Source: a bacterium
GTDB lineage: Bacteria; Patescibacteriota; Minisyncoccia; Phycocordibacterales; Zambryskibacteraceae
Length of the DNA: 51,165 nt
Assembly (NCBI GenBank): GCA_030649135.1
Contig: JAUSGI010000007.1
Coordinates: 1 to 51,165, forward strand
Direction of reading: 5' to 3'
Shown here: positions 1 through 33,929 of the stretch, piece after piece
Layout of the letters: every line of letters begins with the position of its first letter
How positions within the stretch are numbered: the first letter of the stretch is position 1
Notes under the pieces: model-generated
The model's database searches: none
Seen by the model: only the letters and a program-made list of their open reading frames with translations
Told to the model about the DNA's origin: nothing
Position numbers and translations under genes: made by a program

Positions 1-1466
<1,466 letters not shown>

Positions 1467-26726: not shown

Positions 26727-26780
26727 TCAACTACAGATTTTCCCTAGATGAATCATGGGGAAAACAGATAGGGGGACAGG

Positions 26781-27131
26781 ATGCCCGACCAAGTCCAGCT
26801 TGACCGAGAGCTCAGAAGCAGTCTCATGGCCCGCGGACTCAAGTTCCTGGAAGACTTGCGCCTGAGCCGCACAGACGCAAGGCCCACCTCCCGTGAGTTC
26901 GAGGAGTGGCAAGATTCCGACACCGGACTTAAGCTGCTCGAGATGAGCTCAGCAACCATCAAGCAGATGATGGGAGCGCTCGAGCGGTTTCAGCACGGCG
27001 GCTACGGCATCTGCAACGAGTGCGGGGAAGAGATCAGCGAGGCCCGCCTGCGGGCCCTGCCGTTCGCAACTCGGTGCACGAGATGCCAGAACCAGTACGA
27101 GACTCCACGGCACGGAATCCTCTTCGCCTAA
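26781..27131 (+). CDS. TraR/DksA-family C4 zinc-finger protein
   Basis: C-terminal GICNECGEEISEARLRALPFATRCTRCQ is the canonical DksA/TraR CxxC-x17-CxxC finger. It lies in the GC-rich island. Confidence 0.8.
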   Translation: MPDQVQLDRELRSSLMARGLKFLEDLRLSRTDARPTSREFEEWQDSDTGLKLLEMSSATIKQMMGALERFQHGGYGICNECGEEISEARLRALPFATRCTRCQNQYETPRHGILFA

Positions 27132-27140
27132 CGCGTCCCA

Positions 27141-27176
27141 CGTGCCCCGGTAGCAGTACCGCCGGGGCACGTTTTT
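27141..27176 (+). terminator. Rho-independent terminator (cgtgccccgg...ccggggcacg + TTTTT)
   Basis: 10-bp perfect stem 10 nt after the traR/dksA stop. Confidence 0.8.
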
Positions 27177-27318
27177 AAATGTAAAACTTTTCATTCTAAA
27201 TCTTAATCTGGAATGCCAATAGATTACTTAAGTGTAAACGAAAAAGGCGCCCGATGTGAATCGAAGCGCCCATGACCTCCTTTCAGAGAGTCTTCCGCCT
27301 ACAGCGGAGTCAAAAAGT

Positions 27319-27867
27319 CTAGCTGCTAGAAACGACCTGGCGGCCCGAGGACCACCCGCTCGGGTCCTCGACGGAGTAGGCGTTGACAAGCCAGCCGCCG
27401 TCGTCGGCGCTCCAGCCCGCGTCCACGGGACAGAGGTTCCCATCCCTACCTCGAAGGTAGAAGACGAACCACTCCGTACTCCTCCGGTTATCGGCAAGGA
27501 ATGCCTTGAACCGGGAGGCTGAGATCTCGGCCTTGTCGCCGAGCTCCGCGAGGATCGGGGCGTCGAGGGCATCTTCTGTGAGCCTGTGAACCTTGAGTTC
27601 ACCTGCCTCCGTTGCCTCGACCCTGAGTCCCAGGAACTGGGACTCGAAGTTTTCCCCCATCCAGCGCACCCCGGCTTCCTCGAAATACTTCTTCGAGGTA
27701 GTGATTGCCGGCTGGGCGATCACCTTTACCATGCGGACCATGGCGAGAATCGTCTCGAAGGCGACCTTGCCCTGCCCGCCGATGAAGCGGAGGAAGTTGT
27801 CCCAGCCGCCCATGCGGTTGATGCAAGCTTCCGTCTGCCCAGCGGTTACATCATTGTACTTGCCCAT
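27319..27867 (-). CDS. Hypothetical protein with C-terminal C-type-lectin-like module, paralogous to the DGR target variable region
   Basis: GAGGAG RBS 7 nt before MGKYND. C-terminus ...GWSADDGGWLVNAYSVEDPSGWSSGRQVVSSS aligns with the DGR target tail DDGRWLCAY...P.YRW...VSQVSS. ~60% GC. Confidence 0.6.
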   Translation of the reverse strand: MGKYNDVTAGQTEACINRMGGWDNFLRFIGGQGKVAFETILAMVRMVKVIAQPAITTSKKYFEEAGVRWMGENFESQFLGLRVEATEAGELKVHRLTEDALDAPILAELGDKAEISASRFKAFLADNRRSTEWFVFYLRGRDGNLCPVDAGWSADDGGWLVNAYSVEDPSGWSSGRQVVSSS

Positions 27868-27939
27868 TAGAGTCTCCTCTCGGCTCAAAGCCGATGGTTT
27901 CCCTCTGCCCGAGGTTGTGGGGGCTTAGCAACACCATGT

Positions 27940-27991
27940 CGCCATAGCTTTGAATGTCCTAAGAAACCCTGGGAGACTCAAAGCTATGGCG
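27940..27991. repeat. 14-bp perfect inverted repeat (cgccatagctttga / tcaaagctatggcg) with 24-nt loop at the island boundary
   Basis: Seen directly at 27940-27953 and 27978-27991. It sits at the GC-rich to AT-rich transition upstream of the island gene and downstream of recO. Confidence 0.7.
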
Positions 27992-28059
27992 AATTTCTGC
28001 AACTAGTCCTATAAAAGAGCCTTTTATTTATCTTTCTTCATTATACACCTAAAGATATA

Positions 28060-28572
28060 CTATGTCAAGTGACTAGATTGCATGCCTTCATTTATGGCCT
28101 TGATTATAGCTTTTTTATCCAAATCCAAATCTGCTTCGTTGAGGTAGCCCAGATGAAAAAGAATTTGTGAGACTAGGCGGATTTCAAACATTTCATCGTC
28201 AGGATGTAGAAAAAGAACAGACTGCTCTAGCATATCAAATAGTTCCGGGTGCGGGTCTTCCCCCTGGACCAATTTTTCTATAAGAGACAGGGGCCTTGCA
28301 ATGCCGGACGAGCCAGAAATCTTTTGCAATAACTGTGCCGAAGTCAGCCGCCAATATTCTTTACCTTTCACAAAAGAAATGGACGAGAGCGAGAACGGTT
28401 CGAGATTGCCACGAAGCTTGGAAACTTCCTTGCGCACACCGGTAGCCATGGCACGCACCAAACCAAGGTCACGAGTCATAATGGTGTAAATCCTATCAGC
28501 TTCCCGCATCGGCCTTTCGGAAAGTACGATACCCTTGGTGGTGTAAATGTGATAAGACACCTTAATATTCAA
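28060..28572 (-). CDS. recO: DNA repair protein RecO (short form)
   Basis: N-terminal OB domain pattern (GIVL...READRIYTIMTRDLGLVRAMATGVRK) consistent with RecO. Confidence 0.7.
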   Translation of the reverse strand: MNIKVSYHIYTTKGIVLSERPMREADRIYTIMTRDLGLVRAMATGVRKEVSKLRGNLEPFSLSSISFVKGKEYWRLTSAQLLQKISGSSGIARPLSLIEKLVQGEDPHPELFDMLEQSVLFLHPDDEMFEIRLVSQILFHLGYLNEADLDLDKKAIIKAINEGMQSSHLT

Positions 28573-31500
28573 GTTCGATGTTAGTTGCTCTCTCTATTTC
28601 GGTCATATGTTTTTTGAAAAATTCTTCTTCACCCATCGGCGGAGTAAACTTCATCTTGTCGTTAGGTTTTAGTCCTTTCTCTTTACGCAGATCCTGAATA
28701 GCGCGTATTGCATCACGCACCTTCCCTTCTTCAAGAAGTTCGGAAGTGAGATTGGTATCGAGCTCTACCCCGCCAATATCTTTATGTATCACTTCTTTGA
28801 CATTTATTTCATCTTTAATTAATTCTATATACCCGGTATTCAGACCATTAATTCTGGCTTCCAGTTTTCGTAATGGCTGACGTACTTTTATATTTGCTTT
28901 TGAACGCGCCTCCAAAGCCAGGGACACAATTGTTCTTGTCTCTGACATATTCCTTAGAAGTTTTTTACCGGTATACCCCATGAGTATTACGTGGTACAAC
29001 CTCCTTCCACCCTCCGGCCATTTTTCAAGATGAATACTCAATGGATCTTTTTCTCTTCTTAATTTTTGATATAAATCTTCTGCAGTAAATGGAGCGAACG
29101 GTGCAAGAAGCATAGACAATTGTTTCAAGACAAAATACAGTGTCTGCTTAGCTTTTACATCGCCAGATTTTATTCTTTCTCTAGATCGCCTTAGGTACCA
29201 AGTTGAGAGATCGTCAATAAAATCGCGTATATTTCTTACTGGCTCAAGCAACTTATAGTCATCGAGATACCCTGTATTCTCCTCGATCAGATACGTTAAC
29301 CTTTCCACTACCCAATGATCGAGGATATTATCACTAACAGGTTTCCCTCTCGACTCTAAAGACCGATCTCGATACAATTCATAGAAAGAATAGACGTTGT
29401 CAAGCGTGTTAAGCATCTTTCTCTGCTCCTCAACTGTACGCTCATCGAAATTCTTGGACTCCCCAGGCTGGTTAACTGCGTACATCCATAGGCGAAGTGC
29501 ATCAATTCCGTATTTATCCATCATTTCCCACGGATCTACCACATTTCCGACAGACTTACTCATCTTCTTACCGTCTTTGTCGAGAAGATGCCCGAGACAA
29601 ACTACATTTTTATACGCCAGACCTCTTTCCATTAAAACTCCTATGGCGTGGAGTGTGTAGAACCACCCACGGGTTTGGTCTATCGCTTCAGAAATAAAAT
29701 CAGCAGGATAGAGAATATTTTGGGGGTCTTGAGCAAATGGCATTGCTCCTGAATCAAACCAGACATCCAGCACTTCTTTTACCCTTCTATATTCTTCACC
29801 ATCTTTAACCAGCATTATCTCATCTATGTAAGGCTTATGCAGATCCAGTTCAAAGTCTTCGTTGTGTGGCAACGGAGCAAAATCTAGTTTCCGCACTTCC
29901 CCGGTACGAGGCATATCTTCAGCAACAAACTTCAATTGATTTCCGCTAGCCACCTTCTCAAGCCGTGCAATCGGTTCGCCGTGAGAAATTATGAGAATAT
30001 TTTTATTTTTATATTTGCTTTCGATTTCGAACATAAATTCACCTACTCGGTGTTGTATTTGTGTGCCATCTTCATTGGGCCCAGTCTCTCGCAATCGTTC
30101 ATCCTGTATAAAATCTTTCGCGATAATTTCCGCTGTTTCGCGAGCGCGCAGAAAAGGCGAAGAGAAGATAAGGTCAAATTTCGTACCATTTATCTTTTCT
30201 GCTTCTTTTTTCCCCTTATCGGTCAAGTGATTATCCGGGTCCCCGACGAGGTCAAGAACGTTTTTGGCGTTACTTTCCGCTTCGCCATGCCGCATCACAA
30301 AATATTTGTTGCCACTAGTCTTCGTGTATTTCTTGAGAGTCTCGAGAGAGCCTACTACTATCCTTTGCGAACCATCGACGTTTTGCCAGATAGGTAGTGG
30401 CGTACCCCAGTAGCGCTCTCGTGAGATAGCCCAGTCTTTAACCTCTCGGAGCCATTCACCGAATCTACCTTCTCTGATATGCTCTGGTTCCCAATTAATC
30501 TTTTTATTCTCCTCTACAAGATTATCTCGCAATTCGGACATCCTTATGTACCACGAATCACGAGCGTAATATATGAGACGAGTTTTGCATCTCCAACAAA
30601 ATGGATATGAGTGAGTGTAGGATTCTTTATCGAGAAGAAGATTTCGATTCTGTAAATCTTTAAGAATCTCTATTGCTGTAGACTCTTCGACTACTGATTT
30701 CCCTGCAATAAATCCAGTTTCTGGCTTAAAGTACCCAGTCTCGTCGACCAAATGATGCTTGGGCAAACCTACTTTTGTACCAAGCACAAAATCATCTTGG
30801 CCGTACATAACAGCAGTATGAACTATGCCTGTGCCATCTTCCGCGGTGACGAAATCTGCCGCATAAACTTTGTGAGAATTTTCATTGCTAGGAGAGAATC
30901 CATAAAGCGGCTCATATTCTAGTCCAACCAAATCTTTTCCTAAAAATTCTTCTGGGTCTAAGCCAGGCCATTTATGCGCAAGTTTTTTTGCTACGATGTA
31001 AAATTCGCCAGCCCATTTGTACTTGACATATTCAATATCTTTATCTACCGCTAACGCAACATTGCCTGGAAGAGTCCAGGGAGTGGTGGTCCAAGCAACT
31101 AGATAGGTATTTTCTTGCCCAACGACTTTAAACTTAACGTAAAGCGAAATGTCTTTTACTTCCTGATATCCCTGCGCTAGTTCATGACTGGAAAGCGCTG
31201 TTCCGCAACGCGGACACCAGGGCAAAACCTTATAGTCCTTATAGAGTAATTTACGCTCCTCTACGTGCGCAAGAATCGACCACACTGACTCGATGTATGA
31301 ATTGTTATAGGTAAAATATGCGTCATCAAGATTCACCCAGTAACCAATGCGGTCGGTAAATTTAGCCCAGTCGCCGATATATTTCTGAACACTCGCCCTA
31401 CATGCCTTATTAAATTTAGCGATGCCGTATTTTTCAATTTCTTTTTTTGACTGAAGGCCCAGAGTTTTCTCAACCTCAAGCTCTACCGGTAGACCATGAG

Positions 31501-31747
31501 TATCCCAACCAGCTTTTCTCGGCACACGGAAGCCCCGCATAGTCTTATATCGAGGGATAGCGTCCTTAAAAGCACGCGCTTCGAGATGGTGTATGGCTGG
31601 TCGACCATTGGCTGTTGGCGGACCTTCGTAGAAGACAAAGTCACCTTTTGGAGATTTCTTCTCCAAAGTTTTCTCAAATATTTTGTGCTCTTTCCAGAAT
31701 TGGAGAATTTTCTCCTCTCTTTGAGCGCGTTCGGACTTCTCTCTCAT
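28562..31747 (-). CDS. ileS: Isoleucyl-tRNA synthetase carrying an inserted histidine-phosphatase (PGAM-like) domain
   Basis: GWDTHGLP, the CP1 editing region (WTTTPWTLPGN), EG-type DQTRGWFY and KMSKSVGNVVDP. About 150 aa between PLPIW and DLHKPYID (aa ~478-625, nt ~29875-30316) contain RHGE...SHGEPI, which is alien to IleRS. Confidence 0.85.
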   Translation of the reverse strand: MREKSERAQREEKILQFWKEHKIFEKTLEKKSPKGDFVFYEGPPTANGRPAIHHLEARAFKDAIPRYKTMRGFRVPRKAGWDTHGLPVELEVEKTLGLQSKKEIEKYGIAKFNKACRASVQKYIGDWAKFTDRIGYWVNLDDAYFTYNNSYIESVWSILAHVEERKLLYKDYKVLPWCPRCGTALSSHELAQGYQEVKDISLYVKFKVVGQENTYLVAWTTTPWTLPGNVALAVDKDIEYVKYKWAGEFYIVAKKLAHKWPGLDPEEFLGKDLVGLEYEPLYGFSPSNENSHKVYAADFVTAEDGTGIVHTAVMYGQDDFVLGTKVGLPKHHLVDETGYFKPETGFIAGKSVVEESTAIEILKDLQNRNLLLDKESYTHSYPFCWRCKTRLIYYARDSWYIRMSELRDNLVEENKKINWEPEHIREGRFGEWLREVKDWAISRERYWGTPLPIWQNVDGSQRIVVGSLETLKKYTKTSGNKYFVMRHGEAESNAKNVLDLVGDPDNHLTDKGKKEAEKINGTKFDLIFSSPFLRARETAEIIAKDFIQDERLRETGPNEDGTQIQHRVGEFMFEIESKYKNKNILIISHGEPIARLEKVASGNQLKFVAEDMPRTGEVRKLDFAPLPHNEDFELDLHKPYIDEIMLVKDGEEYRRVKEVLDVWFDSGAMPFAQDPQNILYPADFISEAIDQTRGWFYTLHAIGVLMERGLAYKNVVCLGHLLDKDGKKMSKSVGNVVDPWEMMDKYGIDALRLWMYAVNQPGESKNFDERTVEEQRKMLNTLDNVYSFYELYRDRSLESRGKPVSDNILDHWVVERLTYLIEENTGYLDDYKLLEPVRNIRDFIDDLSTWYLRRSRERIKSGDVKAKQTLYFVLKQLSMLLAPFAPFTAEDLYQKLRREKDPLSIHLEKWPEGGRRLYHVILMGYTGKKLLRNMSETRTIVSLALEARSKANIKVRQPLRKLEARINGLNTGYIELIKDEINVKEVIHKDIGGVELDTNLTSELLEEGKVRDAIRAIQDLRKEKGLKPNDKMKFTPPMGEEEFFKKHMTEIERATNIELEY

Positions 31748-31754
31748 ATTTTGG

Positions 31755-32327
31755 CTATTTTAACACTTCTTTGGCTCCTTTCAAAAGATTTTGCACGAGG
31801 GCAGTGAGTTCGGCAACTGCCTGTTCAAGGTTATCGTTCACTATAATATGGTTAAACTTTTTGCTCGCTTCTATTTCAATTTCAGCTCTAGCGAGACGTG
31901 TGCGTATAGATTCCTCGGAATCCTTGCCTCGTGTCCTTATGCGTTTCTCCAGTTCATCGAGCGAAGGCGGGCTGATGAAAATAAGCTTTGCCTCCGGAAA
32001 CTTGGATTTAATCTGAAGCGCCCCGGACACATCGAGTTCGATAAGTACATCCCCCGATTCGAGTGCTTTCTCCAATGAAATTTTAGAGGTCCCGTATAGA
32101 TTATTAAAATGCTCATCACTTTCCGCAAATAAATCCAGGGACTTCATCCGTTCAAACTCGCCCCGAGTAACGAAATGATATTGAACACCATTTTGGTCCC
32201 CCTCTCGCATGGGTCTGGTAGTATAGCTGACGGGAATCTGAAAAAGCGGAAACTTTCGTCTAATCTCCGTAATGAGCGTCTCTTTTCCCACGCCCGATGG
32301 GCCAGAAATAATAATGAGAACGGACAT
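31755..32327 (-). CDS. gmk: Guanylate kinase
   Basis: P-loop ISGPSGVGKETL and the YTTRPMREGD...G.YHFV GMP-binding region. Confidence 0.9.
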   Translation of the reverse strand: MSVLIIISGPSGVGKETLITEIRRKFPLFQIPVSYTTRPMREGDQNGVQYHFVTRGEFERMKSLDLFAESDEHFNNLYGTSKISLEKALESGDVLIELDVSGALQIKSKFPEAKLIFISPPSLDELEKRIRTRGKDSEESIRTRLARAEIEIEASKKFNHIIVNDNLEQAVAELTALVQNLLKGAKEVLK

Positions 32328-32330
32328 AGA

Positions 32331-33929
32331 TTACATTCTTTCTGGAGTTGGGATGCCTAAAATATCTAAACCATTTTTCATTACGATATTAAAGGCTTTG
32401 GTGATAGCCAGGCGATAGGGAGATTCTGGAGAATCACCAATAATTTGCTCATGCGCATAGAAATTGTTGAAGCTCCCCGCAAGCTCTGTCAGATACGTAA
32501 CGATATAGTGAGGAGCATATTCTTTGCCAGCTCTCTCGACTACTTCCGGAAATCTATACAGAAGCTTTTCGATCCCATGAGTTTCCCTTAAGGTCAGACC
32601 TTGAGAATCAGTACTTAAGGTCTGACCTTGGGAATCTGCCCTCTCCAAAAGAGAGTTGGTACGTGCATATGCATATTGGAGATACACCCCGGAGTCCCCT
32701 TCGGTAGAGACGGATTTATCGATATCAAAAACAATGTCATTCCCTATCGCCTGCCGTAGAATCATGTATTTGATGGCCCCGATAGCCACCGCCTCGTCAC
32801 CCTTCACCTTCTTCTTTACTTCTTCAATTAACGCCTCGGCAGTGATGACATCTCCAGTTCTGGATGACATCTTGCCAGTAGGTAAACGGAGCATGCCGTG
32901 AGGCAAATGTTTAGTTTTTTCTGCCAGTTCTGGAAAAGTCAATTTCATAGCAGCCAGAAGTACTTTGAAATAGTCCTTAATCTCATTTCCAGTTACCACA
33001 ATAGATTTGGTATATGGATATTTCTCAAATTTAATTTTCGCTAAACCTAATTCTTTGGCCTCGTATGTTGGCAAACCGGCAGAACTTATAAAAACACGGG
33101 TATGAAGGGCCGGGTCGTATTTCTCCGCATGGAAAACGACAGCGCTGTCGCTTTCTTCAAATATCTTGCCTTTATTTTTTTCAACAATCTCTTTGCCGAT
33201 TTTTCCACCATCACTCTCGAAGAAAAAATAGTCAAACTTGGTACCAAGTCTTTTATAAATTGAATCAAAGTATTCGAGACTCAATTTTTTACCTTCATCA
33301 TAAACCTTGTTTATCTCCTCATCAGAGTGTTCGTATATCTTTTTATTTATTTCTTGAATCTCTTTCTTAGATTCGTCAGCTTCCTCATACGCTTTCGCTC
33401 CGGCCGGATATGGTTCCTTTTCTCCTCTTAATAGCCCCCAGACTGCTTTGGCCACATGGATACCTACGTCTCCCTGATAACAAGCCTGTTTAACCTCTGC
33501 ACCATTCCACGCGAAGACATTTGCCACGGTTGAACCGATAACGTTGGGCATAAGATGACCAATATGGAATTCTTTAAATGGATTCGGGTCGGTATGTTCG
33601 ACCATCACTTTCTCTCCCTTAAGATTTTCATTTTTACCAAACTCATTTTCCCGCTCGATAACCTCACCAATACTTTTCTTAAAAAATTCTGTTGACAGAT
33701 AGAAATTTACAAATCCTCCCCCAGCACCCCTAACTTCTTCTACATAGTACGGTTTATTAGAATTTAAGTAGACAACTATCTTTTGGTGTAATAAATGATC
33801 TTTGCCTCCAAGATGAAAAGAGTAGTCGCCATTTCTTAAATCAGTCGGATGCTCCACGACAAAGTCCCCCGCTTCTATACCAAGCGACTTCAGGGCTTCT
33901 GTTATTAACTTCCGGAGTTTTTCTTTCAT
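32331..33929 (-). CDS. argS: Arginyl-tRNA synthetase
   Basis: HIGH-type motif (FHIGHL), ArgRS N-terminal add-1 domain, and C-terminal DALR-like region ending ...ERM. An in-frame 24-bp tandem duplication lies at ~32590-32640. Confidence 0.88.
   Translation of the reverse strand: MKEKLRKLITEALKSLGIEAGDFVVEHPTDLRNGDYSFHLGGKDHLLHQKIVVYLNSNKPYYVEEVRGAGGGFVNFYLSTEFFKKSIGEVIERENEFGKNENLKGEKVMVEHTDPNPFKEFHIGHLMPNVIGSTVANVFAWNGAEVKQACYQGDVGIHVAKAVWGLLRGEKEPYPAGAKAYEEADESKKEIQEINKKIYEHSDEEINKVYDEGKKLSLEYFDSIYKRLGTKFDYFFFESDGGKIGKEIVEKNKGKIFEESDSAVVFHAEKYDPALHTRVFISSAGLPTYEAKELGLAKIKFEKYPYTKSIVVTGNEIKDYFKVLLAAMKLTFPELAEKTKHLPHGMLRLPTGKMSSRTGDVITAEALIEEVKKKVKGDEAVAIGAIKYMILRQAIGNDIVFDIDKSVSTEGDSGVYLQYAYARTNSLLERADSQGQTLSTDSQGLTLRETHGIEKLLYRFPEVVERAGKEYAPHYIVTYLTELAGSFNNFYAHEQIIGDSPESPYRLAITKAFNIVMKNGLDILGIPTPERM

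What the first reader, a model, noticed from the sequence alone, without database searches (positions are those of the whole stretch)
29875..30316. Isoleucyl-tRNA synthetase with an inserted histidine-phosphatase (phosphoglycerate-mutase-like) domain
Between the conserved IleRS blocks ...ISRERYWGTPLPIW and DLHKPYIDE...DVWFDSG there are ~150 extra residues. They carry both catalytic signatures of the histidine phosphatase superfamily: RHGE near the start (FVMRHGEAESN), and SHG (ILIISHGEPIARL). The intervening pattern LTDKGKKEAE...FDLIFSSPFLRARETA is typical of the PGAM/cofactor-dependent phosphatase fold. A normal IleRS has only a short linker here. This looks like a domain fusion inside an essential aaRS, not a frameshift, because the frame is continuous. 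It might act as a phosphatase on a nucleotide or tRNA-linked substrate, or be a degenerate module.
Basis: partly seen in the sequence, partly recalled or inferred. Interest (0 to 1): 0.6.

Follow-up and report, generated by a model that had tools for sequence, protein, structure and literature searches.

The report
Phosphatase domain built into isoleucyl-tRNA synthetase
An essential protein-synthesis enzyme (isoleucyl-tRNA synthetase) of an uncultivated ultra-small (CPR) bacterium carries a complete, apparently active phosphatase inside it, and the same pairing recurs across this bacterial group and in the sister enzyme for valine, which points to an undescribed job linked to tRNA charging.

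Summary
The gene at 28562-31747 (-) encodes a 1061-aa type-2 IleRS. Residues 476-627 (nt 29867-30322) are a clean 152-aa insertion in the CP3 subdomain. The insertion is a branch-1 histidine phosphatase: PF00300 70.6 bits, AlphaFold pLDDT 93.9, and Foldseek top hits PspA, CobC and PhoE.

It is not a chimera or a relic. All 120 closest IleRS clusters carry it, as do at least 80 species genomes of Paceibacteria, and the catalytic residues R486, H487, R534, R567 and H589 are invariant.

- **Neighbouring gene:** in insert-free relatives the same phosphatase family is a separate gene directly upstream of ileS (9 of 10 checked).
- **Other lineages:** IleRS elsewhere in the CPR carries two copies, at four different sites.
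- **ValRS:** it carries 1-4 copies, mostly at the equivalent CP3 site.
- **This window's clade:** it has lost the roughly 40-aa substrate lid. That loss is seen only in fused forms (28/120 against 0/124 free-standing).

The domain is most likely an active phosphomonoesterase working on the synthetase. Its substrate is unknown. I found no description of this architecture in the searchable literature.

The parts
28562..31747 (-). ileS gene: type-2 isoleucyl-tRNA synthetase, 1061 aa, with an internal phosphatase domain
   Evidence: ORF. TIGR00392 846.7 bits against cutoff 621.4. PF00133, PF08264, PF19302 and PF00300. Best solved relatives are P. megaterium IleRS2 and T. thermophilus IleRS. AF2 mean pLDDT 87.9, pTM 0.81.
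29867..30322 (-). Inserted branch-1 histidine phosphatase domain, aa 476-627 (152 aa), lid-less form
   Evidence: Gap in the alignment to 8c8w. PF00300. AF2 pLDDT 93.9. Foldseek hits PspA, CobC and PhoE. Translation verified.
30284..30292 (-). R486-H487-G488: RHG motif with the predicted nucleophilic histidine
   Evidence: R and H are 120/120 and G is 114/120 in fused IleRS. Coordinates verified.
30269..30271 (-). N493, the conserved Asn of the RHGxxxxN phosphate pocket
   Evidence: 116/120. Verified.
30146..30148 (-). R534, the phosphate-binding Arg of the SPxxRAxxTA motif
   Evidence: 120/120. Verified.
30086..30088 (-). E554, the predicted proton donor (DERLRE, as in PhoE DERLREI)
   Evidence: E in 116 and D in 4 of 120. 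Aligned to PhoE 1h2e/1ebb. Verified.
30050..30085 (-). Remnant of the lid (cap) segment, aa 555-566: 12 residues where free-standing relatives have 36-49
   Evidence: The short lid occurs in 28/120 fused proteins and in 0/124 free-standing ones.
30047..30049 (-). R567, an invariant Arg after the lid
   Evidence: 120/120. Verified.
29981..29983 (-). H589, the second catalytic histidine (SHG)
   Evidence: 120/120. Verified.
30323..30388 (-). N-terminal half of CP3 (WQNVDGSQRIVVGSLETLKKYT), which has lost the CxxC zinc knuckle
   Evidence: 0/120 fused enzymes keep CxxC, whereas insert-free neighbours have WVCDKCG...FKCDKCDG. CP3 is defined in yeast and Candida IleRS (PMC7955072; PMC7191050).
29768..29866 (-). 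C-terminal junction and second half of CP3 (HNEDFELDLHKPYIDEIMLVKDGEEYRRVKEVL), a strongly conserved linker
   Evidence: P627 116/120, H628 113/120, D635 120/120, H637 120/120, P639 120/120. pLDDT 93-96.
31586..31597 (-). Class I signature motif in its non-canonical form, AIHH (aa 51-54)
   Evidence: Verified. The clade consensus is GIHH. The G/AXHH motif is described in PMC10485003.
29552..29566 (-). KMSKS motif, aa 728-732
   Evidence: The loop has low confidence in the model, as expected for a mobile loop.

Best explanation
The gene encodes a working type-2 IleRS of a Paceibacteria (Parcubacteria, near Zambryskibacteria) CPR bacterium. A compact histidine phosphatase of the PhoE/CobC/PspA kind is built into the tip of the CP3 subdomain by two conserved, well-ordered linkers.

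**Shown.** The domain has the histidine-phosphatase fold and a complete catalytic set (R486, H487, N493, R534, E554, R567, H589). That set is invariant or nearly so across the clade. The arrangement is old and widespread. The same phosphatase family is otherwise encoded as a separate gene directly upstream of ileS. The family has been placed in IleRS at four or more sites and in ValRS at two or more sites, in 1-4 copies.

**Inferred.** The domain is an active phosphomonoesterase that works through a phospho-His487 intermediate. It is selected to work physically on the branched-chain class Ia synthetase rather than merely being co-expressed with it. The base of CP3, the SRERYWG linker, lines the pocket for the tRNA CCA end. 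The substrate lid became dispensable only after fusion. The likeliest substrate is therefore something presented at the synthetase: a phosphorylated tRNA acceptor end, or a nucleotide or phosphorylated small molecule at the synthetic site.

**Rough likelihoods.** Active phosphatase, about 0.85. Functional coupling to the synthetase, about 0.5-0.6. Any one named substrate, no more than 0.2.
For: - **Identity and fold:**
- **Selection on catalysis:** R486, H487, R534, R567 and H589 are 120/120, N493 is 116/120, and E554 is 116 E plus 4 D. Neighbouring positions vary freely.
- **Multi-domain IleRS:** in every complete copy aligned, the two His, three Arg and proton-donor Glu are unchanged apart from one Arg-to-Gln (P0214 copy 1) and one Glu-to-Gly (P0336 copy 2). 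Co-resident copies are only about 30-36% identical.
- **Distribution:** all 120 best IleRS clusters carry PF00300. A scan of species genomes gave 315 matching stretches, and the best 80 all hold the insert. They come from Zambryski-, Nomura-, Kaiser-, Adler- and Vogelbacteria, Paceibacterota and Minisyncoccia. An insert profile finds 404 cluster representatives at E <= 1e-30, and 103 of the best 149 have IleRS flanks.
- **Neighbour form versus fused form:** 9 of 10 free-standing homologues lie on the same strand upstream of an insert-free ileS of 934-990 aa. Eight are directly adjacent, from an 8-bp overlap to a 49-bp gap, and one is 1.6 kb away. The synteny is the same as in the window: argS - X - ileS - recO. 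None of the 80 fused loci has a free-standing copy within 3 kb.
- **Recurrence:** insertion sites A, A', B and C in IleRS. In ValRS, 71 of 120 homologues carry 1-4 copies, mainly between WGHxIP and DTWFSS, which is the CP3 equivalent.
- **Lid loss only when fused:** 28/120 against 0/124.
- **Junctions:** they are highly conserved and confidently modelled.
- **Position of CP3:** its base lines the tRNA CCA-end pocket (PMC7955072).
Against: - No activity, substrate or structure has been measured.
- I could not obtain model coordinates, so it is unknown whether the phosphatase active site faces the tRNA and synthetic-site cleft.
- The nearest structural relatives are ordinary metabolic small-molecule phosphatases.
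- CP3 is a structurally variable, evidently permissive subdomain (PMC7191050).
- Having the source gene next door gives a trivial route to insertion without any functional meaning.
- Roughly a fifth to a third of the ValRS copies have substitutions at the proton donor or the second His, so the module can persist without full catalysis.
- The domain is mildly acidic (net charge about -3), which does not suggest RNA binding by the domain itself.
Confidence: 0.6

Rival explanations
1. Passenger enzyme. The domain is an active housekeeping phosphatase for some metabolite. It was copied from the gene next door into a permissive surface loop of IleRS. It is retained only because the cell needs the phosphatase, and there is no mechanistic link to aminoacylation.
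For: The structural neighbours are metabolic phosphatases: phosphoserine, alpha-ribazole-phosphate and glucosyl-3-phosphoglycerate phosphatases and PhoE. CP3 differs in topology and zinc content between solved IleRS structures, so it tolerates change. The source gene is adjacent to ileS. Fused loci lack the free-standing gene, as simple replacement would predict.
Against: Gene proximity does not explain why the same domain is also in ValRS, mostly at the homologous CP3 site. It does not explain why IleRS acquired copies at four sites and keeps 2-4 diverged but catalytically intact copies. It does not explain why the operon pairing is kept across very divergent genomes, or why the lid is lost only in the fused state. 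The conserved, ordered linkers suggest a fixed orientation.
Confidence: 0.3
2. Structural module. The phosphatase fold mainly replaces the lost zinc knuckle as a scaffold for CP3, and catalysis is irrelevant or decaying.
For: None of the 120 fused enzymes of this clade keeps the CxxC knuckle that the insert-free relatives have. The lid is deleted in the window's clade. Some ValRS copies have lost the proton donor or the second His.
Against: Five catalytic residues are invariant in 120 IleRS at 59-73% overall identity, including all the lid-less forms. Almost every copy in the multi-domain IleRS is intact. Some fused lineages keep the cysteines, for example P0324 and P0087, so the insertion does not require loss of zinc.
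Confidence: 0.07
3. Artefact or selfish insert. The region is an assembly chimera, a frameshift read-through, or an intein-like mobile element.
For: The C-terminal junction reads ...PLPHN|E, which superficially resembles an intein's terminal His-Asn. CPR synthetases do pick up mobile-element domains: a Y1 transposase domain in P0294 and PF04480 in two ValRS.
Against: The same in-frame architecture is present in hundreds of independent assemblies. The composition equals that of the host gene. The fold is a histidine phosphatase, not a Hint domain. The residue after HN is E, D or K, not the Cys, Ser or Thr that splicing needs.
Confidence: 0.02

Closest known systems
Type-2 (eukaryote-like, mupirocin-resistant) isoleucyl-tRNA synthetase, e.g. 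P. megaterium IleRS2 (8C8W) and T. thermophilus IleRS (1ILE)
   Same: The whole synthetase body matches: Rossmann fold, CP1 editing domain, CP2, CP3, KMSKS, anticodon-binding domain and DUF5915 C-terminal domain. E is 9e-223 and TMt is 0.80-0.91. It even shares the non-canonical G/AXHH signature described for IleRS2.
   Different: A 152-aa catalytic domain replaces 2 residues at the tip of CP3. The CP3 zinc-knuckle cysteines are gone.
Branch-1 histidine phosphatases of the PhoE / PspA / CobC type (1H2E, 4IJ5, 6E4B)
   Same: The same fold. It also has RHGxxxxN, SPxxRAxxTA, DERLxE and SHG, and, in the long forms, the lid motifs ExxxGxxxG...PxGES.
   Different: It reaches no NCBIfam subfamily cutoff. 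It is embedded in another enzyme. In this window the lid of about 40 aa is deleted. The substrate is unknown.
SixA, the minimal phosphohistidine phosphatase (TIGR00249; relative 3F2I)
   Same: A small core of about 150-160 aa with little or no lid. 3F2I is the best sequence match among solved structures.
   Different: It scores 47.6 bits against a cutoff of 74.5. The lid-less state here is secondary, derived from a PhoE-like lidded ancestor.
Other enzymes of nucleic-acid metabolism or tRNA charging with an added catalytic domain: IleRS with a GNAT domain (NCBIfam NF040702) and the bifunctional RNase H / histidine acid phosphatase (NF005567, Rv2228c type)
   Same: These are precedents for an extra catalytic module on IleRS, and for a histidine phosphatase fused to a nucleic-acid enzyme. 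Both models appear in the hit lists.
   Different: Those are end-to-end fusions or different domains. Here the phosphatase is nested inside the catalytic domain's CP3, recurs at several sites and copy numbers, and is shared with ValRS.
HD-domain phosphatase of the bacterial CCA-adding enzyme, which removes 2',3'-cyclic or 3'-phosphate from tRNA ends (from my own knowledge, not tested here)
   Same: It is a possible functional analogy: a phosphoesterase riding on an enzyme that handles the tRNA 3' end.
   Different: The fold and chemistry are unrelated. No evidence here shows that the IleRS insert touches tRNA.

Membership tests
Isoleucyl-tRNA synthetase (TIGR00392 ileS) | Whole-protein score above the curated equivalog cutoff | tested here: met
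   846.7 bits against 621.4, in two stretches split by the insert.
Isoleucyl-tRNA synthetase (TIGR00392 ileS) | Class I signature motifs (HIGH-type and KMSKS) | tested here: met
   KMSKS is at aa 728-732. The first motif is AIHH at aa 51-54, the non-canonical G/AXHH form known only from IleRS2.
Isoleucyl-tRNA synthetase (TIGR00392 ileS) | CP1 editing domain, anticodon-binding domain and type-2 C-terminal domain | tested here: met
   The isolated T. thermophilus editing domain 1wk8 matches aa 193-382 at E 3e-31. PF08264 and PF19302 are present. The whole-chain fold matches IleRS2.
Isoleucyl-tRNA synthetase (TIGR00392 ileS) | Isoleucine activation and charging of tRNA-Ile | not testable with these tools
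   Inferred from sequence only. No second ileS is present in the 51-kb window.
Histidine phosphatase superfamily, branch 1 (PF00300) | Profile score above the gathering threshold | tested here: met
   70.6 bits on the whole protein and 77.2 bits on the segment, against 21.7.
Histidine phosphatase superfamily, branch 1 (PF00300) | Catalytic core: RHG nucleophile His, second His, two or three Arg, acidic proton donor | tested here: met
   R486, H487, R534, R567, H589, E554 and N493 are present, and invariant or nearly so in 120 homologues.
Histidine phosphatase superfamily, branch 1 (PF00300) | Alpha/beta fold of the superfamily | tested here: met
   AF2 pLDDT 93.9. There are 281 PDB matches at E <= 0.001, and every one of the 50 listed is a histidine phosphatase or mutase.
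Histidine phosphatase superfamily, branch 1 (PF00300) | Phosphomonoesterase activity through a phosphohistidine intermediate | not testable with these tools
   Needs an enzyme assay.
Cofactor-dependent phosphoglycerate mutase (dPGM) | Score above the cutoff of a dPGM model | tested here: not met
   NF038349 48.8 against 225, TIGR01258 23.5 against 81.7, and the others lower. The lid motif in the long forms is of the PhoE/CobC type. It should not be called a mutase.
SixA phosphohistidine phosphatase (TIGR00249) | Score above the equivalog cutoff | tested here: not met
   47.6 against 74.5.
CobC alpha-ribazole phosphatase (TIGR03162) / PspA phosphoserine phosphatase (NF045917) | Score above the equivalog cutoff | tested here: not met
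   44.2 against 162.9 and 34.1 against 350 for the window. Free-standing relatives score 85-102 against 162.9.
Intein | Hint fold, N-terminal Cys or Ser, terminal His-Asn followed by Cys, Ser or Thr | tested here: not met
   The fold is a histidine phosphatase. The residue after H628-N629 is E, D or K.

The most novel reading that the evidence does not exclude
The phosphatase is a third catalytic site of the branched-chain class Ia synthetases in CPR bacteria, and it performs a step of tRNA charging that is not known elsewhere. One possibility is removal of a 2'/3'-phosphate or pyrophosphate from A76, so that damaged or toxin-modified tRNA can be charged. Another is reversal of kinase-toxin phosphorylation of the synthetase's own KMSKS region. 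A third is destruction of a phosphorylated inhibitor at the active site. The changing copy number, the several insertion sites and the lid loss would then be traces of an arms race. The mupirocin-hyper-resistance signature motif in the same enzyme fits a history of antibiotic pressure.
Probability: 0.2. Interest if true: 0.9.

Novelty: new variant of a known kind. Interest (0 to 1): 0.66.

Why it matters
Aminoacyl-tRNA synthetases are among the best-studied enzymes, and their added domains have repeatedly revealed new biology such as editing, signalling and resistance. I know of no synthetase with a catalytically intact phosphatase nested in its catalytic domain, and I found none in the searchable literature.

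Here the pairing appears as a conserved operon, as a single insertion, as multiple insertions, and in a paralogous synthetase. That is the classic signature of a real functional link.

The finding offers three things:
- a concrete, testable handle on an unknown function in CPR/Patescibacteria, a huge and mostly uncultivated group with minimal genomes;
- a natural example of domain insertion into CP3;
- an explanation for why annotation pipelines fail to name these enzymes, so that they are labelled 'class I tRNA ligase family protein' while free-standing phosphatases are labelled 'isoleucyl-tRNA synthetase'.

Tried and rejected
1. **Chimera or frameshift.** Rejected by the survey and by composition.
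2. **Degenerate module.** Rejected for IleRS by residue conservation. It is partly true for some ValRS copies.
3. **Intein.** Rejected.
4. **Charge argument.** Free-standing forms are basic (pI 9.6) and inserts are near neutral (pI 6.0). I first read this as evidence that the free protein docks on RNA or on an acidic IleRS. It is a genome-composition effect, because IleRS, ArgRS and RecO in the same low-GC loci are also around pI 9. I dropped it.
5. **Defence-system link.** No PADLOC hit for the insert or for a free-standing homologue.
6. **Alignment-based locus search.** A scan of species genomes with the insert alignment failed for lack of a conserved stretch. The single-sequence query worked, but its patterns are specific to this sequence, so 315 is a lower bound.
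7. **Geometry.** The tools return no model coordinates, so I could not measure how the phosphatase site is oriented relative to the synthetic site or the tRNA.
8. **Number of fusion events.** A rough neighbour-joining tree of IleRS bodies shows insert-free enzymes interleaved with fused ones. This suggests repeated fusion or fission. The tree has no support values and long branches, so I do not rely on it.
9. **Literature.** Nine searches and six papers were read. None mentions a phosphatase in IleRS or ValRS. Only open-access papers and preprints are covered.
Full report
**1. What is in the sequence.**
The finding lies inside a single ORF, 28562-31747 on the minus strand, 1061 aa. Its neighbours are ordinary housekeeping genes:
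- recO at 28060-28572;
- guanylate kinase at 31755-32327;
- argS at 32331-33929;
- an HD-domain nucleotidase, glyA and thyA.

The protein is an isoleucyl-tRNA synthetase. It scores 846.7 bits on TIGR00392 against a cutoff of 621.4, and it carries PF00133, PF08264 and PF19302. Its best solved relatives are P. megaterium IleRS2 (E 9e-223) and T. thermophilus IleRS.

In the alignment to 8c8w, residues 4-474 pair with chain residues 9-477 and residues 628-1028 pair with 480-894. About 153 residues therefore occupy the place of two. I set the insert at aa 476-627, nt 29867-30322. The composition of the insert equals that of the rest of the gene.

**2. What the insert is.**
PF00300 (histidine phosphatase superfamily, branch 1) hits at 70.6 bits on the whole protein and 77.2 bits on the segment, against a cutoff of 21.7.

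Folded alone with an alignment of 30 inserts, the domain gives pLDDT 93.9 and pTM 0.90. Its Foldseek neighbours in the PDB are all histidine phosphatases or mutases, at E about 4e-9 and TMq 0.72-0.75:
- PspA phosphoserine phosphatase (4ij5, 4ij6);
- CobC (6e4b);
- the E. histolytica phosphoserine phosphatase;
- Rv2419c, TIGAR and PhoE (1h2e).

In the full-length model (pLDDT 87.9, pTM 0.81) the insert is a confidently folded extra domain, with pLDDT about 89-96. The body superposes on IleRS2, with TMt 0.80 to 8c8w and 0.91 to 1ile.

No NCBIfam subfamily cutoff is reached: dPGM 48.8 against 225, SixA 47.6 against 74.5, CobC 44.2 against 162.9. It is therefore a separate subfamily of the phosphatase type, not a mutase.

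**3. Where it sits.**
In yeast IleRS, CP3 is residues 459-526. The CP2-CP3 linker, ARDWNVSRNRYWG, forms part of the pocket for the tRNA CCA end (PMC7955072). The window's insert follows the equivalent ISRERYWGTPLPIW by about 20 residues and precedes DLHKPYID...DVWFDSG. It is therefore at the tip of CP3.

CP3 is known to differ in topology and zinc content between solved IleRS structures (PMC7191050). Insert-free relatives have the CxxC...CxxC zinc knuckle here. None of the 120 fused enzymes of this clade keeps the first CxxC.

**4. It is real, old and under selection.**
- **IleRS clusters.** The protein itself is a public MAG protein (P0092, contig of 51165 bp). All 120 best IleRS clusters, at 59-73% identity and 1051-1161 aa, also carry PF00300.
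- **Species genomes.** A scan of one genome per species found 315 matching stretches. The best 80 all span the whole insert. They come from Zambryski-, Nomura-, Kaiser-, Adler- and Vogelbacteria, Paceibacterota and Minisyncoccia.
- **Cluster representatives.** A profile of 30 inserts finds 404 cluster representatives at E <= 1e-30. Of the best 149, 103 have IleRS flanks and 39 are short free-standing proteins.
- **Catalytic residues.** Across the 120 fused enzymes, R486, H487, R534, R567 and H589 are invariant. N493 is 116/120 and E554 is 116 E plus 4 D. Neighbouring positions vary freely.
- **Junctions.** Both junctions are also strongly conserved, for example N480 120/120, P627 116/120 and H628 113/120.

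**5. The gene-neighbour form.**
The closest free-standing relatives are proteins of about 190 aa from the same bacterial group, at 30-38% identity. I looked up ten of them.

Nine lie on the same strand upstream of an insert-free ileS of 934-990 aa. Eight are directly adjacent, from an 8-bp overlap to a 49-bp gap, and one is 1.6 kb away. They usually sit in the order argS - phosphatase - ileS - recO - DUF11 gene, which is the synteny of the window. One locus has two tandem phosphatase genes. The tenth, a weak hit, is elsewhere.

Conversely, none of the 80 fused loci has a free-standing copy within 3 kb, and the window has no second copy. Fused and neighbouring forms therefore replace each other.

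**6. Variation on the theme.**
More distant IleRS carry two phosphatase domains. These include Peribacteria and a cluster with six members on contigs of up to 1.06 Mb. Motif maps and alignment to an insert-free enzyme give four sites:
- site A, the window's site;
- site A', in the second half of CP3, near window aa 650;
- site B, the loop after DVWFDSG, near aa 673;
- site C, after KMSKS and before the anticodon-binding domain, near aa 800.

Domains at the same site in different proteins are each other's best matches, and co-resident copies are only about 30-36% identical. The duplications are therefore old. In these IleRS copies the two His, three Arg and proton-donor Glu are unchanged apart from two single substitutions.

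One hit with four copies turned out to be a ValRS. Following it up showed that 71 of 120 ValRS homologues from Gracilibacteria, Peregrinibacteria and relatives carry 1-4 copies. Most are between WGHxIP and DTWFSS, the CP3 equivalent, and some are before WCISRQ. Of 87 ValRS copies, 47 have the exact catalytic pattern of the IleRS inserts. Roughly a fifth to a third have changes at the proton donor or the second His.

**7. What is special about this window's version.**
The segment between the proton donor E554 and R567 is the lid that shapes the substrate pocket in this family. It is 12 residues here, against 36-49 in all 124 free-standing proteins. The short form occurs in 28 of 120 fused IleRS and in none of the free-standing ones. 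All lid-less forms keep the catalytic residues.

**8. Interpretation.**
Shown:
- an intact histidine phosphatase domain is nested in CP3 of a type-2 IleRS;
- it is conserved over a large clade;
- it is interchangeable with an ileS-adjacent gene;
- it has been inserted recurrently in IleRS and ValRS.

Inferred:
- it is an active phosphomonoesterase, by the usual phospho-histidine mechanism;
- it is selected to act on or beside the synthetase.

The lid loss that occurs only in the fused state, the conserved rigid junctions, and the position next to the CCA-end pocket all suggest that the substrate is presented by the synthetase. It could be a phosphorylated tRNA end, or a nucleotide or small phosphorylated ligand. 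None of this is tested, and I could not examine the geometry.

The main rival is a passenger housekeeping phosphatase that entered a permissive loop from the gene next door. That explains the IleRS cases cheaply. It does not explain the ValRS parallel, the multiple sites and copies, or the lid loss.

**9. Comparison with what is known, and novelty.**
Both parts are members of known families, IleRS2 and PF00300. The combination is not in any paper I could search, including two recent evolutionary surveys of IleRS and a survey of CPR synthetase oddities. The proteins are in public databases, but under uninformative or wrong names. I rate it a new variant of a known kind: a synthetase with an added catalytic module, with unusually strong comparative evidence for a functional link and no known function.

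Noticed in passing
window 26730-28050: A GC-rich island of about 1.3 kb (58-64% GC against about 42% around it) lies between the DUF11 gene and recO. It holds a DksA/TraR zinc-finger ORF (26781-27131, +) followed by a hairpin and T run (about 27139-27177). It also holds a 189-aa ORF (27319-27888, -) with no Pfam, PHROG, PADLOC or phage match. In syntenic loci recO is followed directly by the DUF11/CLIPPER gene, so this looks like a recent foreign insertion or an assembly chimera.
   Followed up: partly
window 31586-31597 (-), aa 51-54 of IleRS: The class I signature motif is AIHH, and the clade consensus is GIHH. This is the non-canonical G/AXHH form that Brkic et al. 2023 (PMC10485003) showed gives mupirocin hyper-resistance in IleRS2. 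The CPR clade was not part of that survey.
   Followed up: partly
window 30323-30388 and 29768-29866 (-): The CP3 zinc knuckle (CxxC...CxxC), which is present in the insert-free relatives, has lost its cysteines in this enzyme. The first CxxC is absent in all 120 fused enzymes of its clade. Some other fused lineages keep the cysteines.
   Followed up: partly
P0368-P0485 (ValRS homologues); P0212: Valyl-tRNA synthetases of Gracilibacteria, Peregrinibacteria and relatives carry 1-4 histidine phosphatase domains. Most are at the CP3-equivalent site and some are before WCISRQ. A minority of copies have lost the proton donor or the second His.
   Followed up: partly
P0294; P0391, P0426: One IleRS fragment has an IS200-type Y1 transposase domain inside the editing region, plus the phosphatase and a C-terminal GNAT domain. 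Two ValRS carry a PF04480 domain. CPR class Ia synthetases seem to be frequent hosts of in-frame domain insertions.
   Followed up: no
P0041, P0073; P0092 and many others: There are annotation side effects. JGI names two free-standing phosphatases 'isoleucyl-tRNA synthetase'. NCBI names many fused IleRS and ValRS only 'class I tRNA ligase family protein'.
   Followed up: no
L092 5001-6180: Two tandem free-standing phosphatase genes (195 and 196 aa) sit directly upstream of an insert-free ileS. This mirrors the two-domain fused enzymes.
   Followed up: no
L084 4496-7869: A fused IleRS is broken into four or more ORFs, one of which is P0001 (the phosphatase part). It lies next to Cas1 and an IS605 OrfB gene. 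The cause is probably frameshift errors in the assembly, or a pseudogene.
   Followed up: no
window 1-1466 (-): This is the 5' part of a 23S rRNA gene, cut by the window end. It takes 1466 nt to cover model positions 1-1309, so it may hold an insertion of about 150 nt. No tRNA gene was found anywhere in the 51 kb.
   Followed up: no
P0229, P0231, P0261, P0270, P0287, P0296, P0313, P0324: These distant IleRS also share an extra segment of about 71 aa in the C-terminal domain. It follows position 881 of the insert-free reference, near window aa 990.
   Followed up: no
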